From a virus: a stretch of 64,000 bases of DNA. Position numbers and translations under genes: made by a program. The notes beneath the pieces were generated by a model. The model did not search any database, was not told the DNA's origin, and saw nothing but the letters and a program-made list of their open reading frames with translations. This document shows, in pieces, positions 1,491 through 4,193 of this stretch. Positions within the stretch are counted from its first letter, which is position 1, and each line of letters starts with the position of its first letter. Location of the stretch: IMG/VR virus record IMGVR_UViG_3300042445_001170, positions 32,001 through 96,000 of that record, one strand, 5' to 3'.

Positions 1491-1765
1491 TTTGGATCTT
1501 TAATTGGCGACTTATCTAAACTAAAATAATTAGTTTGATGTCCAAACTTCATCTTATTTAATCTTTTATTGATAGCCCGCCACATTCCCCATTCTGTGTA
1601 TGCAAGCCCGCCTTTACAAGCTGCTCCCCAGTAGCCGTCATTTGGCCCATCGCCCATTTGATACCATTTTTGAATATCCCAAAATCTAGCCCTTGGACCA
1701 TATTTCCAATCACGGTGAACTTTGATTATATATGCTGGACGATCTACAGATTTCTTTTTGCTCAT
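1487..1765 (-). CDS. hypothetical protein
   Basis: ORF track, overlapping start/stop with neighbours. Confidence 0.7.
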   Translation of the reverse strand: MSKKKSVDRPAYIIKVHRDWKYGPRARFWDIQKWYQMGDGPNDGYWGAACKGGLAYTEWGMWRAINKRLNKMKFGHQTNYFSLDKSPIKDPK

Positions 1766-1950
1766 CCTAACTCCTTCTCAATAGCCTGAATAACTTCTTT
1801 AACAGGAACACAGCAATGACCTTTTTTGTCTAAAAAATTACACAATTCCACTACTGCACGAAGGGCTCGCATAGATTGTGGGTCACCGTTGTAATAAGCA
1901 ACATCTAATCTGCGGTTAATTTCAATTAGCAATTCATCGTATGTCATCAT
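1762..1950 (-). CDS. hypothetical protein (start moved to ATG 1950)
   Basis: ATGA coupling with upstream gene. Confidence 0.65.
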   Translation of the reverse strand: MMTYDELLIEINRRLDVAYYNGDPQSMRALRAVVELCNFLDKKGHCCVPVKEVIQAIEKELG

Positions 1951-2162
1951 TGCTCCATCATAGCATTTATACCCTTGATTACACAAGTGTCTATGCCATC
2001 TCCATATCTATGGGTAAACTTTTTACCTACCCTCCATAGCTGATCGTCTTCTATGATTAAATAGTCATTGATTGAATCAGGATCTGTATCTCCTGCAACC
2101 CGCCCAATGTGGTATGTCTTAATTAGCCTATCGTTAACGTATATTGGAATGTGTATTGGCAT
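1947..2162 (-). CDS. hypothetical protein (start moved to ATG 2162, after tRNA-Gln)
   Basis: Longer ORF-track start lies inside tRNA-Gln. Confidence 0.65.
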   Translation of the reverse strand: MPIHIPIYVNDRLIKTYHIGRVAGDTDPDSINDYLIIEDDQLWRVGKKFTHRYGDGIDTCVIKGINAMMEQ

Positions 2163-2163
2163 G

Positions 2164-2234
2164 CTCTCCCCCAAGGATTCGAACCTCAATAGCCAGGACC
2201 AAAACCTGGAGTCCTACCGTTAGACGAGAGGAGA
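2164..2234 (-). tRNA. tRNA-Gln(UUG)
   Basis: Cloverleaf, CCAGG-TTTTGGT-CCTGG, GGTTCGAATCC, U1-A72. Confidence 0.92.
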
Positions 2235-2239
2235 CTATG

Positions 2240-2322
2240 CGGAAACAATAGGATTCGAACCTATGGATCTTTCAATCTACGATTTAGCAAACCGTTGCAT
2301 TCGACCACTCTGCCATATTTCC
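2240..2322 (-). tRNA. tRNA-Ser(GCU)
   Basis: Cloverleaf with long variable arm, loop TTGCTAA. Confidence 0.92.
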
Positions 2323-2483
2323 TTGTGTCGGGTCAGTTTATAGATTCCACACTGTAAGGCCTTTAACCGAGTCCCCCGACGAGACCGTACAGTAGACTCC
2401 TAGTTGCCCCTGTAGTTTGCGTAAACAGAAAGCTAACTTTTCGTAGCTACCGAAAGTTCCTACTGCCATACAAACGTTTCCCG
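2323..2483 (-). ncRNA. putative structured ncRNA C between tRNA-Trp and tRNA-Ser
   Basis: No ORF; multistem junction (GCAGUAGG/UCUACUGU) plus long 3' hairpin. Confidence 0.55.
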
Positions 2484-2554
2484 CACCGTCTCTAGGAGTC
2501 GAACCTAGGCTTGCCGCTTTGGAGACGGCAGTGCTACCATAACACTTAGACGAT
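2484..2554 (-). tRNA. tRNA-Trp(CCA)
   Basis: GCCGT-CTCCAAA-GCGGC, GGTTCGACTCC. Confidence 0.92.
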
Positions 2555-2685
2555 ATGTGATCAATAGGTCTACGAGCAGACTAACCTAATGATCGTGATA
2601 TATGAGGATTTACTATCGCTCGTTGTCCTCCAGTTGTCCCCGTCGGGAGTCAGTCTCAATTACCTGAAACTCAACTTTAATATCG
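2555..2685 (-). ncRNA. putative structured ncRNA B with 6-bp kissing loop, between tRNA-Leu and tRNA-Trp
   Basis: No ORF; nested stems; loop ACGAGC complementary to loop GCUCGU. Confidence 0.62.
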
Positions 2686-2759
2686 TACATCAGGTAGGAG
2701 TTGAACCTACAACAATTAGTTCCTAAGACTAACGCCTCTACCAGTTGGGCTACTGACGC
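2686..2759 (-). tRNA. tRNA-Leu(UAG), short variable loop
   Basis: TTAGT-CTTAGGA-ACTAA; 74 nt. Confidence 0.88.
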
Positions 2760-2929
2760 AAATGCTAGCCACGACTTGGGTTCTTAACCTAAACCATCTG
2801 CTAGCTGTTATACCTAGTTACGACCACAGAGCCTATCCATCAGCCTGAACGCCTTCATAAGATGCAGGTAACAGTGCTAAGTTCGGTATAACTATCTCCG
2901 TACAGGTTGTTCAGACCTTATACTTTGAG
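2760..2929 (-). ncRNA. putative pseudoknotted ncRNA A between tRNA-Met and tRNA-Leu
   Basis: No ORF; 9-bp GGUCUGAAC/GUUCAGGCU enclosing loops complementary to downstream GGUAUAACAG; 3' hairpin. Confidence 0.6.
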
Positions 2930-3004
2930 TGGCGGATATGGGATTTGAACCCATGACCTAAAGCTTATGAGGCTTTCGAGCTAACCGAACTGCTCTAATC
3001 CGCT
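2930..3004 (-). tRNA. tRNA-Met(CAU), initiator-like
   Basis: A1xC72 mismatch, A11:U24, T loop TTCAAAT; anticodon stem AAAGC/GCTTT. Confidence 0.88.
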
Positions 3005-3014
3005 GTGGAGATTA

Positions 3015-3043
3015 AGTATAGTACAGAACTAAATCCCTGTCAA
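3015..3043 (-). promoter_or_regulatory. SigA-type promoter of the tRNA/ncRNA array
   Basis: TTGACA-17-TATACT. Confidence 0.8.
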
Positions 3044-3340
3044 CTATATTTGAATTGCCATTACACTCTTGGCATTAAGTAATAGATACTTAGTGTTGTC
3101 ATCATCTTCAACTTCCGTCCCAGAATGCTCTGGATAAAGGATTACATCTCCCACATTGATTCCGCCAATCGGGATCAGGTCGCCCTTGTAGTTGTATTCA
3201 CCTTCGCCCATGCTAATTACTGTAGCTTTATTTGGGCCTTGATCTGAGAACGTGGCAGATAGCACTAAGCCTGTAGCCGTTGTCTTTTCGCCTGTTTCAA
3301 TCTTCTTGATAAGCAACATTCCACCTATAGGTTTAATCAT
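3044..3340 (-). CDS. groES: co-chaperonin GroES
   Basis: IKP.G...T.TG.VL...G.V...G.G...GD.I.Y...GTEV...YLLL. Confidence 0.9.
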   Translation of the reverse strand: MIKPIGGMLLIKKIETGEKTTATGLVLSATFSDQGPNKATVISMGEGEYNYKGDLIPIGGINVGDVILYPEHSGTEVEDDDNTKYLLLNAKSVMAIQI

Positions 3341-3553
3341 TGTCTATGCCTTTTCTTATTTCCATAACGAGCCTTGACTTCTGCCTTAGCTTTATCTACA
3401 ATAGATTGCGTTAAAACATCTACATTAAATTCATCATCAAACTGCTGTTCGTTCATCTGGATCCTTTTCCCATGTAAGTTTTCCATCTTTATATACAGGC
3501 CAATATCCTAATGAACGCCAGTCCATTTTCATAATCTTTGGCTCTCTTGGCAT
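3337..3553 (-). CDS. two coupled microproteins (3437-3553, 38 aa; 3337-3456, 39 aa)
   Basis: Hand translation MPREPKIMKMDWRSLGYW... and MNEQQFDDEF...; second overlaps groES ATG. Confidence 0.55.
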
Positions 3554-3563
3554 ACCACACACC

Positions 3564-4193
3564 TTAACCACGCATATATGGAAACAGTATGTAAGAGTAT
3601 AAATCATAGTTATCAAGAAGTGCTGGGTTGTCAGCCATATTACCTAAATTCATCTTCATAAGTGTCTTGTAATCAACCGTTATCATCATTGCTGGCTCTT
3701 TTTGATTTATATTTCCATACTGGTCTACTGATGGGAATGTTCCAGTAATGCATGCAGAGGCATTCTTATCCCACACTATTTCTTTATACTCAGTAAGGAT
3801 AGCAATCATATCTCTTTGACCACCACGAATTCTTGAGTCTTTGAATAAGTTATCAGAGATTGGAAACTTTACGAGTACGCAATCAGATTTACTATAACTT
3901 ACGTAGACATCTACATCTAACTCAGACTGAACATTTTTTCTAAATTCCTTAATGGGGTCTTTATTTTCATTCTTTGGATCTTCTAATACAGACTGAACTT
4001 CTTTTGCTGTTGTCTCAACAATCTTTTCTTTTTCTACTGTTGGTGGAAGTGTAGCACCAATTGCAATAAAAAGAATTGTGGGCAGAACTACTGCAAATGC
4101 CAGTAGTGATTTAGAGATAGTCTTTCTTTTAACAATTGCTACAACCATAGCAATTAAACTTAGTAGGTACAGAATAATAAATAAATCCGACAT
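3564..4193 (-). CDS. membrane-anchored protein (2 N-terminal TM, soluble C domain)
   Basis: Hydrophobic N-terminus; own promoter TTGACG-17-TATACT at 4272-4244. Confidence 0.75.
   Translation of the reverse strand: MSDLFIILYLLSLIAMVVAIVKRKTISKSLLAFAVVLPTILFIAIGATLPPTVEKEKIVETTAKEVQSVLEDPKNENKDPIKEFRKNVQSELDVDVYVSYSKSDCVLVKFPISDNLFKDSRIRGGQRDMIAILTEYKEIVWDKNASACITGTFPSVDQYGNINQKEPAMMITVDYKTLMKMNLGNMADNPALLDNYDLYSYILFPYMRG

What the first reader, a model, noticed from the sequence alone, without database searches (positions are those of the whole stretch)
2555..2685. Spacer RNA B: multi-way junction locked by a perfect 6-bp kissing loop
Seen: closing stem GAUAU/AUAUC; a three-way junction (AGUUG/CAACU, AGUUUCA/UGAGACU, UCCC/GGGA); hairpin GAGGA/UCCUC whose loop holds ACGAGC (2623-2618); and a 3' hairpin whose 6-nt loop is exactly GCUCGU (2577-2572). 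Almost every nucleotide is accounted for. Inference: a selected RNA structure. The kiss could be intramolecular or drive multimerisation, as in phi29 pRNA.
Basis: partly seen in the sequence, partly recalled or inferred. Interest (0 to 1): 0.72.

Follow-up and report, generated by a model that had tools for sequence, protein, structure and literature searches.

The report
Kissing-loop RNA gene in phage tRNA operon
The 131-base gap between two transfer-RNA genes of this uncultured phage is a real, strongly conserved gene for a folded RNA that matches no catalogued family; its two complementary loops are kept in every relative found, but what the RNA does is unknown.

Summary
Real feature. The spacer (window 2555-2685, minus strand) lies between tRNA-Leu(UAG) and tRNA-Trp in a 112-kb uncultured virus whose nearest cultured kin by DnaE are Streptomyces phages. 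I found 55 copies (48 distinct) in viral and metagenome contigs, one per contig, always 4-5 nt upstream of a tRNA or of an extra hairpin module that precedes one.

Homologues support helices P1, P3, P4, P5 and P6 by compensatory changes (99.7% of cells paired; 0 of 500 shuffles reach the observed scores). P2 is always paired but varies on one side only.

The 6-bp loop-loop match ACGAGC x GCUCGU is exact and unlikely by chance (about 1%). It is pairable in 48 of 48 distinct homologues. The only change is A/G opposite U, so there is no compensatory proof. The loops are frozen while the neighbouring P6 stem covaries at 9 of 10 pairs, so their sequence itself is under selection.

No Rfam match, no homology to T4 rnaC/rnaD or phi29 pRNA, and absent from 27 related viral records.

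Best reading: an accessory small RNA released by tRNA processing and locked by an intramolecular kiss. Function unknown. The scan noted the same family in one other genome, and analogous RNAs in other phage tRNA operons.

The parts
2555..2685 (-). Predicted mature spacer RNA B (131 nt). Its 5' end lies 1 nt after the tRNA-Leu discriminator; its 3' end abuts the tRNA-Trp 5' end.
   Evidence: tRNA bounds. CM R1 match at 2554-2686(-), 147.5 bits. The ends are inferred from tRNA processing, not measured.
2680..2684 (-). P1 5' strand GAUAU (closing stem)
   Evidence: Pairs with 2597-2601. U-A to C-G double change in 15-20 homologues.
2597..2601 (-). P1 3' strand AUAUC
2672..2676 (-). P2 5' strand AGUUG
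   Evidence: Pairs with 2632-2636. 100% paired, one-sided A-U to G-U only in the main family. GGCUG/CAGCU and GGAUG/CAUCU in divergent members.
2632..2636 (-). P2 3' strand CAACU
2651..2666 (-). P3 hairpin: conserved base CAG(G)U ... ACUG with a variable top.
Evidence: Three covarying pairs.
2637..2648 (-). P4 hairpin UCCC-GACG-GGGA
   Evidence: C-G to U-A double change in L069 and L073. Absent in divergent members, whose 5' arm is a single hairpin.
2604..2630 (-). P5 hairpin GAGGA / UCCUC with the 17-nt loop L5 (CA-ACGAGC-GAUA-GUAAA)
   Evidence: The closing pair covaries A-U, C-G, U-G, G-C, U-A. Loop flanks are invariant; the central 4 nt flip as a block, GAUA or UUAU.
2618..2623 (-). L5 kissing segment ACGAGC (ACGGGC in 28 of 48 homologues)
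2559..2594 (-). P6 3' hairpin: 10-bp basal stem, UUAG bulge (2581-2584), 3-bp UCU/AGA and a 6-nt loop
   Evidence: 9 of 10 basal pairs have double-sided changes. The bulge, the apical stem and the loop are invariant apart from C/U at one apical-stem position, which still pairs with G.
2572..2577 (-). L6 kissing loop GCUCGU
   Evidence: Invariant in 48 of 48 distinct homologues, also when left as N in the search pattern.
2686..2759 (-). Upstream tRNA-Leu(UAG), no encoded CCA
2484..2554 (-). Downstream tRNA-Trp(CCA)
3015..3043 (-). Promoter-like site TTGACA-17-TATACT just upstream of tRNA-Met, the first gene of the array
   Evidence: a consensus match only; 11 of 12 positions

Best explanation
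Spacer B is a gene for a small structured non-coding RNA that rides in the phage's tRNA operon.

Maturation (inferred): it is transcribed from the promoter upstream of tRNA-Met, together with tRNA-Met, Leu, Trp, Ser, Gln and two other spacer RNAs. Host tRNA-processing enzymes free it: RNase P cutting at the 5' end of the downstream tRNA makes its 3' end, and 3' trimming of the upstream CCA-less tRNA (RNase Z type) makes its 5' end.

Fold (shown by covariation): a three-way junction of P1, a variable P2 arm and P5, followed by a long 3' hairpin, P6.

Tertiary contact (inferred): the fully complementary 6-nt P6 loop pairs with ACGRGC inside the 17-nt P5 loop of the same molecule. This docks P6 alongside the P1-P5 stack. 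P1 (5 bp) plus P5 (5 bp) plus 2 loop nt is about as long as P6 (10 bp, bulge, 3 bp).

The loop-loop helix, the invariant UUAG bulge and the invariant CAAC and GUAAA flanks would form the conserved functional surface. The P2 arm and the P6 stem are only scaffolds.

Function (speculative): the RNA acts in trans during infection by binding a protein or another host factor. It is an accessory function, like the tRNAs around it.
For: Gene-like conservation:
- 55 copies, 48 distinct, one per contig.
- 86% identity between two phages, against 88-91% for the flanking tRNA-Leu and tRNA-Trp, 73% for the neighbouring protein gene and 62-65% for spacers A and C.

Structure:
- 99.7% of cells paired, 12 pairs with double-sided changes, 0 of 500 shuffles as good; slid controls give 30-42% paired.
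- P6 covaries at 9 of 10 pairs and P1 at 3 of 5.
- Many G-U pairs fix the strand as that of the tRNAs.

Processing context:
- It always sits 4-5 nt before a tRNA, or before an extra 62-nt hairpin module that precedes one.
- It usually starts 1 nt after a tRNA discriminator, while the identity of both neighbour tRNAs varies.
- In four contigs it follows a protein gene instead of a tRNA but still precedes one.
- Promoter-like site upstream, no terminator-like site within 1500-3600.

Kiss:
- Exact 6 bp; chance about 1%.
- Duplex energy -10.8 or -9.2 kcal/mol.
- Pairable in 48 of 48. The only substitution is A/G opposite U, with at least 4 switches on the tree.
- The loops stay unchanged in members whose 5' arm is remodelled.
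- The two loops always co-occur.

Accessory status: absent from 27 related viral records, two of them at least 92% complete, and the five relatives checked still carry 2-6 tRNAs.

Precedent: T4 rnaC and rnaD are stable RNAs placed directly after tRNA-Arg.
Against:
- No compensatory double change in the kiss, although the neighbouring helices covary freely. The loops could therefore be conserved for a partner other than each other.
- Nothing in the sequence says which factor it binds. No RNA-partner gene (Ro60/TROVE, RtcB, CCA-adding enzyme) is in the phage.
- Intramolecular docking rests on helix-length arithmetic, not on a model.
Confidence: 0.55

Rival explanations
1. The two loops do not pair with each other. 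Each is a sequence-specific contact for an outside partner (a protein, or a host or phage RNA), and their mutual complementarity is incidental or reflects a symmetric partner.
For: Both 6-mers are frozen, with zero double changes in 6 pairs, while P6 covaries at 9 of 10 pairs and P1 at 3 of 5 in the same sequences. That is the signature of sequence-specific rather than merely pairing constraint. The flanking CAAC, GUAAA and UUAG are invariant too.
Against: - A full-loop 6-bp complement arises by chance in only about 0.1-1% of shuffles.
- The single variable position uses only A and G, both of which pair with the fixed U.
- No 16-mer target for the P6 apex in the phage genome at up to 3 mismatches.
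- The 18-nt apex occurs once, by chance, in 185,579 prokaryote genomes.
Confidence: 0.17
2. The complementary loops pair between molecules, building dimers or rings as in phi29 pRNA.
For: The complementary loops sit on two different arms of a junction RNA, the topology pRNA uses. Conservation alone cannot separate cis from trans pairing.
Against: - No match to pRNA or to any other Rfam model at E up to 10.
- The phage is a 112-kb tailed virus with a 2,786-aa tape-measure protein and a DnaE polymerase, not a phi29-like podovirus.
- The RNA is an accessory element missing from close relatives, unlike an essential packaging part.
- Arm lengths allow the loops to meet within one molecule (sequence).
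Confidence: 0.07
3. It is a self-cleaving ribozyme or another cis-acting processing element that helps to separate or mature the adjacent tRNAs. HDV-like theta ribozymes next to phage tRNAs are a precedent, cited from my own knowledge.
For: - It starts 1 nt after the discriminator of a CCA-less tRNA in most copies.
- Compact pseudoknot-like core with invariant junction and loop nucleotides.
Against: - No hit to any ribozyme model in Rfam at E up to 10, and none in 12 related tRNA islands at gathering scores.
- Other tRNAs of the same arrays lie 0-5 nt apart without such an element.
- Four copies follow a protein gene, not a tRNA.
- Relatives keep tRNAs without it.
Confidence: 0.1
4. It is a passive structured spacer: filler or insulator between tRNAs, or a decayed tRNA or intron remnant, with no function of its own.
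For: The function is unknown. The element is dispensable in related phages.
Against: - Conserved as well as the flanking tRNAs and far better than the other spacers or the neighbouring protein gene.
- Invariant unpaired nucleotides.
- It moves as a discrete cassette between different tRNA pairs.
- No tRNA-like T arm, and no tRNA call by ARAGORN or Rfam.
Confidence: 0.06

Closest known systems
Phage T4 stable RNAs species 1 and 2 (rnaC, rnaD) of the T4 tRNA gene cluster
   Same: They are small (139 and 119 nt) non-coding RNAs encoded on the tRNA strand directly after a tRNA gene in a phage tRNA operon. As established for T4 (own knowledge), they are released with the tRNAs. Their function is still unknown.
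   Different: No homology: the best R1 score on rnaD is 4.7 bits (E 2.4) and there is nothing on rnaC. rnaC carries a tRNA-type T arm (GGUUCGAAUCC); RNA B has none. B's fold is different: a three-way junction, a 3' hairpin and complementary loops.
phi29 pRNA (packaging RNA)
   Same: A phage RNA of about 120 nt built on a three-way junction, with two loops that are complementary to each other.
   Different: - No match to the Rfam pRNA model at E up to 10.
- Different phage type and genomic place: a tRNA operon, not the genome end.
- Accessory, not essential.
- 6-bp rather than 4-bp complementarity, and the geometry here allows pairing within one molecule.
Junction RNAs tied by a loop-loop helix (purine, lysine and cobalamin riboswitch aptamers; TAR-TAR*-type kissing complexes with fully paired 6-nt loops)
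   Same: A multi-helix junction whose distal loops pair to lock a compact fold. A 6-nt loop that pairs over its whole length has structural precedent (own knowledge).
   Different: No Rfam match. It is not upstream of a regulated ORF and sits between tRNAs. No ligand is implied by its context.
tRNA-punctuated release of non-tRNA RNAs (plant tRNA-snoRNA units, MALAT1 mascRNA, MHV68 tRNA-miRNA units)
   Same: These use RNase P and RNase Z cuts at flanking tRNA structures to define the ends of an unrelated RNA (own knowledge). That is the maturation route inferred here.
   Different: They are eukaryotic or herpesviral systems with unrelated RNAs. Processing of RNA B has not been measured.

Membership tests
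T4 rnaC/rnaD-type stable RNAs | Encoded within a phage tRNA operon, abutting tRNA genes on the same strand | tested here: met
T4 rnaC/rnaD-type stable RNAs | Sequence or structure homology to rnaC or rnaD | tested here: not met
   R1 with filters off on the T4 tRNA region: 4.7 bits (E 2.4) on rnaD, nothing on rnaC.
T4 rnaC/rnaD-type stable RNAs | Accumulates as a discrete stable RNA after RNase P-dependent processing | not testable with these tools
phi29 pRNA | Match to the pRNA covariance model | tested here: not met
   No match to pRNA or to any other Rfam family in 2100-3100 at E up to 10, apart from tRNAs and noise.
phi29 pRNA | Intermolecular loop-loop pairing that forms a ring on the packaging motor | not testable with these tools
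   Sequence cannot separate cis from trans pairing. The phage type differs.
Any Rfam 15 family (4,227 models), including hammerhead, HDV-like, twister, pistol, hatchet, Y RNA/YrlA and riboswitches | Score at or above the gathering threshold, or any suggestive sub-threshold hit | tested here: not met
Bacterial or phage Y RNA (YrlA) | Co-encoded Ro60 (TROVE) protein | tested here: not met
   PF05731 is absent from the 112-kb genome.
RNA anti-CRISPR (solitary repeat mimic) | The hairpin matches a CRISPR repeat present as arrays in prokaryote genomes | tested here: not met
   The 18-nt P6 apex gave one single-copy chance hit in 185,579 genomes. This is an exact-match test only.
tRNA or tRNA pseudogene | Cloverleaf with T arm and anticodon arm | tested here: not met
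   No call by ARAGORN or RF00005 in 2555-2685. No T-loop motif in the sequence.

The most novel reading that the evidence does not exclude
RNA B, perhaps together with the other spacer RNA families that fill these tRNA arrays, is a new class of phage accessory effector RNA. The frozen L5-L6 kissing core would be a specific binding or catalytic site. It could be a decoy or inhibitor of a host tRNA-directed defence nuclease or of a translation or RNA-processing factor, or a new self-cleaving ribozyme class. That would give a function to the 50-year-old puzzle of non-tRNA stable RNAs in phage tRNA clusters.
Probability: 0.12. Interest if true: 0.85.

Novelty: new variant of a known kind. Interest (0 to 1): 0.55.

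Why it matters
Non-tRNA stable RNAs inside phage tRNA operons have been known since T4 species 1 and 2, and still have no assigned function. This family is a second, unrelated and much better constrained example.

- It is a compact 130-nt fold with a fully specified secondary structure.
- It has a sharply defined invariant core: two complementary loops, a bulge and A-rich flanks.
- It behaves as a cassette between shuffled tRNA neighbours.
- It shows clear presence or absence among close relatives.

These properties make it a tractable object for structure work and for pull-downs. The presence-or-absence pattern, and the several co-resident spacer RNA families (A, C and others), suggest that phage tRNA islands carry a wider RNA cargo than tRNAs alone.

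Limits: the family is narrow (one clade of uncultured, probably freshwater actinophage-like viruses), no host is in culture, and no function can yet be named.

Tried and rejected
- Rfam at gathering scores and at E up to 10 gave only tRNAs and noise. Twelve related tRNA islands also gave only tRNAs.
- blastn of 2100-3100 against 50,697 GenBank phage records hit only the tRNAs.
- The T4 rnaC/rnaD region showed no homology.
- Streptomyces phages BillNye and WhereRU, the nearest cultured kin by DnaE at 56-58% aa identity, have no R1 or R2 match. BillNye's 107-153-nt inter-tRNA gaps are unrelated, and at least the one after tRNA-Trp shows an SD plus ATG.
- A broader model, R2, found nothing in 27 related viral records.
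- Hunt for loop variants: patterns that left both loops as N, and patterns that fixed only one loop, never returned a member with a changed loop.
- One viral scan was wasted on a mis-spaced pattern.
- Antisense target of the P6 apex in the phage genome: none at up to 3 mismatches.
- CRISPR-repeat or host-RNA mimicry of the apex: one chance hit. The P5/L5 motif is absent from prokaryote genomes.
- No Ro60, RtcB or CCA-adding enzyme genes in the phage.
- Peptide coding is rejected: no ORF on the RNA strand, and indels are not in threes.
- The IMG/VR csRNA catalogue paper (PMC10690425) holds no searchable supplement, so prior listing there could not be checked.
- An 8-nt identity (GUUAGUCU) between the P6 apex and the anticodon arm of the adjacent tRNA-Leu is judged chance.

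Full report
**Where it is.** The window is bases 32001-96000 of a 112,167-bp IMG/VR virus record. The record encodes a 2,786-aa tape-measure protein, a DnaE-type polymerase, a DnaB helicase and a primase. By DnaE its nearest cultured relatives are Streptomyces phages of the BillNye group, at 56-58% amino-acid identity.

The finding lies on the minus strand between tRNA-Leu(UAG), 2686-2759, and tRNA-Trp, 2484-2554. The array reads: promoter-like TTGACA-17-TATACT (3043-3015), tRNA-Met, a 169-nt spacer, tRNA-Leu, the 131-nt spacer B, tRNA-Trp, a 160-nt spacer, tRNA-Ser, tRNA-Gln. No terminator-like site was found in 1500-3600. The tRNA-Leu gene encodes no CCA: the discriminator A is followed by C and then by the first base of P1.

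**Checking the observation.** The plus strand is unremarkable (z = -0.42). ACGAGC (2623-2618) and GCUCGU (2577-2572) are exact complements.

Shuffling the loop letters gives a Watson-Crick match of 6 bp or more between any two loops in 1.1% of trials. A match that consumes the whole 6-nt loop occurs in 0.1%. The loop-loop duplex is worth about -10.8 kcal/mol, or -9.2 for the common G variant.

**Homologues.**
- Neighbouring-protein searches found only two related contigs with the tRNA island.
- A 20-nt core pattern found 30 viral contigs.
- Further patterns and one metagenome scan raised the family to 55 copies, 48 distinct, always one per contig.
- Six copies (four distinct sequences, L095-L100) are clearly more divergent, at 78-130 bits against about 150.
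- No copy exists in 50,697 GenBank phage records at blastn sensitivity or in one genome for each of 185,579 prokaryote species.
- No copy exists in 27 related viral records, two of them at least 92% complete, or in two Streptomyces phages.
- The five relatives checked still carry 2-6 tightly spaced tRNAs.

The element is therefore an accessory cassette of one clade.

**Context across copies.** The element always ends 4-5 nt before a tRNA. In four contigs it ends before an extra 62-nt hairpin module that itself precedes tRNA-Trp. It usually starts 1 nt after the discriminator of another tRNA.

The neighbours are shuffled. Upstream lie Leu(UAG), Leu(UAA), Glu, Ile, Lys, Gly or Arg. Downstream lie Trp, Glu, Gly, Tyr, Ser, Leu, Lys or Arg. 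In four contigs it follows the stop codon of an AhpD-like gene but still precedes tRNA-Lys, and there P1 is rebuilt as UAAUAC/GUAUUA.

Between this phage and contig L005 the element is 86% identical. The flanking tRNA-Leu and tRNA-Trp are 88-91% identical (tRNA-Gln, further down the array, 99%), the adjacent GroES-like gene is 73%, and spacers A and C are 62-65%.

**Secondary structure.** RNAalifold on a MAFFT alignment of 30 distinct sequences gave the consensus. Pair counting was done on that alignment, on a 43-sequence alignment and on a 48-sequence alignment.
- 99.6-99.8% of cells are paired, against 30-44% when partners are slid by 1-3 columns.
- There are 10-13 pairs with changes on both sides.
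- No shuffle of 500 reaches the observed percentage paired, double-change counts or covariation score.

Per helix:
- P1: 5 bp, 3 pairs covary.
- P2: 5 bp. Only A-U to G-U in the main family. In divergent members it reads GGCUG/CAGCU or GGAUG/CAUCU (L095, L100), and the alignment is less sure for L099 and L096.
- P3: C-A-G, a bulged G, U ... A-C-U-G; 3 pairs covary.
- P4: UCCC-GACG-GGGA; one C-G to U-A change.
- P5: 5 bp; the closing pair has five pair types.
- P6: a 10-bp basal stem (9 pairs covary), a UUAG bulge, then 3 bp and a 6-nt loop.

Frequent G-U pairs fix the strand. It is paired in 57% of cells and is no better than controls, and a 99%-identical copy (L002) already breaks it.

In three of the four divergent sequences (L096, L099, L100) the whole P2-P3-P4 arm is replaced by one long hairpin; L095 keeps shortened P3 and P4 hairpins. 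The general architecture is thus a three-way junction (P1, a variable arm, P5) followed by P6.

**The kiss.**
- The six proposed pairs are formable in 48 of 48 distinct sequences.
- Five pairs never vary. The sixth is A-U in 20 sequences and G-U in 28, with at least four switches on a tree built without those columns.
- When both loops were written as N in the search pattern, every member found still had the same two 6-mers.
- Baiting with P5/L5 alone, or with the P6 apex alone, returned the same set. The apex bait added one new true member and one chance hit in a coding region.

The complementarity is therefore universal in the family.

The contrast with P6 (9 of 10 pairs covary) and P1 (3 of 5) in the same sequences shows that the loops are constrained in sequence, not only in pairing. 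Their immediate surroundings behave the same way: CA before and GUAAA after the L5 segment, and the UUAG bulge and UCU/AGA stem under L6, are invariant except for C/U at one apical-stem position. The four central L5 nucleotides flip as a block between GAUA and UUAU.

My reading is that the loop-loop helix and these flanks form one conserved tertiary core. Simple helix arithmetic (P1 5 bp, P5 5 bp and 2 nt, against P6 10 bp, a bulge and 3 bp) lets the loops meet within one molecule. Fully paired 6-nt kissing loops have precedent (own knowledge). Pairing within or between molecules cannot be told apart here.

**What it is not.**
- No Rfam family matches, even at E up to 10, and none matches in twelve related tRNA islands.
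- It is not homologous to T4 rnaC or rnaD, which sit directly after tRNA-Arg in T4 and of which rnaC carries a tRNA T arm.
- There is no pRNA match.
- The phage has no Ro60, RtcB or CCA-adding enzyme gene.
- The P6 apex is not a CRISPR repeat or a host RNA segment at exact-match level.
- The phage genome holds no antisense target for it.
- It is not coding: there is no ORF on the RNA strand and indels are not multiples of three.

**How it most likely works.**
- Shown: a selected, discrete, structured RNA on the tRNA strand, with tRNA-grade conservation and a frozen pair of complementary loops.
- Inferred: co-transcription with the tRNAs; release by RNase P (3' end) and tRNA 3' processing (5' end); a compact fold locked by an intramolecular L5-L6 helix.
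- Speculative: action in trans on a protein or another host factor, as an accessory function of the tRNA island.

Rivals, in order of weight: loops that each bind an outside partner; a ribozyme or processing role; pRNA-like multimers; an inert spacer.

**Comparison and novelty.** It works like the T4 species 1 and 2 RNAs in genomic logic, but it is not a member of that family or of any other catalogued one. I rate it a new variant of a known kind.

Earlier notes of this scan report the same family in one other genome (e1-5961813). They also report unrelated kissing-loop RNAs in other phage tRNA operons (e1-5322999, e1-5864961, e1-5826326). I did not test those, but they suggest a recurrent theme.

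Interest is moderate. The RNA is real, clean and experimentally tractable, but the family is narrow and nothing points to a function.

Noticed in passing
window 2323-2482 (-) and 2760-2928 (-); loci L036-L083: The other two spacers are also conserved cassette families. Family A has 25 copies of 138-164 nt, always directly after tRNA-Trp. Family C has 20 copies of 151-169 nt. At least eight smaller inter-tRNA module clusters (51-335 nt) occur in related contigs. None matches Rfam.
   Followed up: partly
L043, L050, L060, L065 (about 62 nt after the P6 hairpin of B): Four contigs carry an extra hairpin module of about 62 nt (GCCCUA...UAGGG) inserted between RNA B and tRNA-Trp, so that spacer is 190-191 nt long.
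   Followed up: no
window 2609-2625 (-), L5 centre (alignment A6 columns 70-73): The four central nucleotides of the P5 loop switch as a block between GAUA and UUAU, about half of the family each and with few intermediates. No partner column covaries with them.
   Followed up: partly
window 1947-2189 (-): The 80-aa ORF listed from TTG 2189 overlaps tRNA-Gln. Homologues match only from residue 10, and an ATG at 2162 preceded by GGGAGAG lies just after the tRNA, so the real gene probably starts at 2162. In relatives this gene has no tRNA island upstream.
   Followed up: partly
window 3044-3340 (-): A 98-aa GroES/Gp31-like co-chaperonin gene sits immediately upstream of the tRNA operon promoter. 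I assigned it by eye from the translation. It has homologues in 23 viral contigs at 55-100% identity.
   Followed up: no
window 2578-2585 (-) versus tRNA-Leu anticodon arm, about 2718-2728 (-): The P6 apex shares the 8-mer GUUAGUCU with the 5' side of the anticodon arm of the adjacent tRNA-Leu(UAG). About one such match is expected by chance among these comparisons.
   Followed up: no
L087-L093 (Streptomyces phage BillNye, NC_042105): BillNye also has 107-153-nt gaps between tRNAs, including 141 nt after tRNA-Trp. These are unrelated to families A, B and C. The gap after tRNA-Trp shows a Shine-Dalgarno sequence plus ATG, that is, a micro-ORF.
   Followed up: partly
L039, L046, L075, L080: In four contigs RNA B directly follows the stop codon of an AhpD-like (CxxC) gene and precedes tRNA-Lys, with P1 rebuilt as a 6-bp UAAUAC/GUAUUA stem.
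   Followed up: partly
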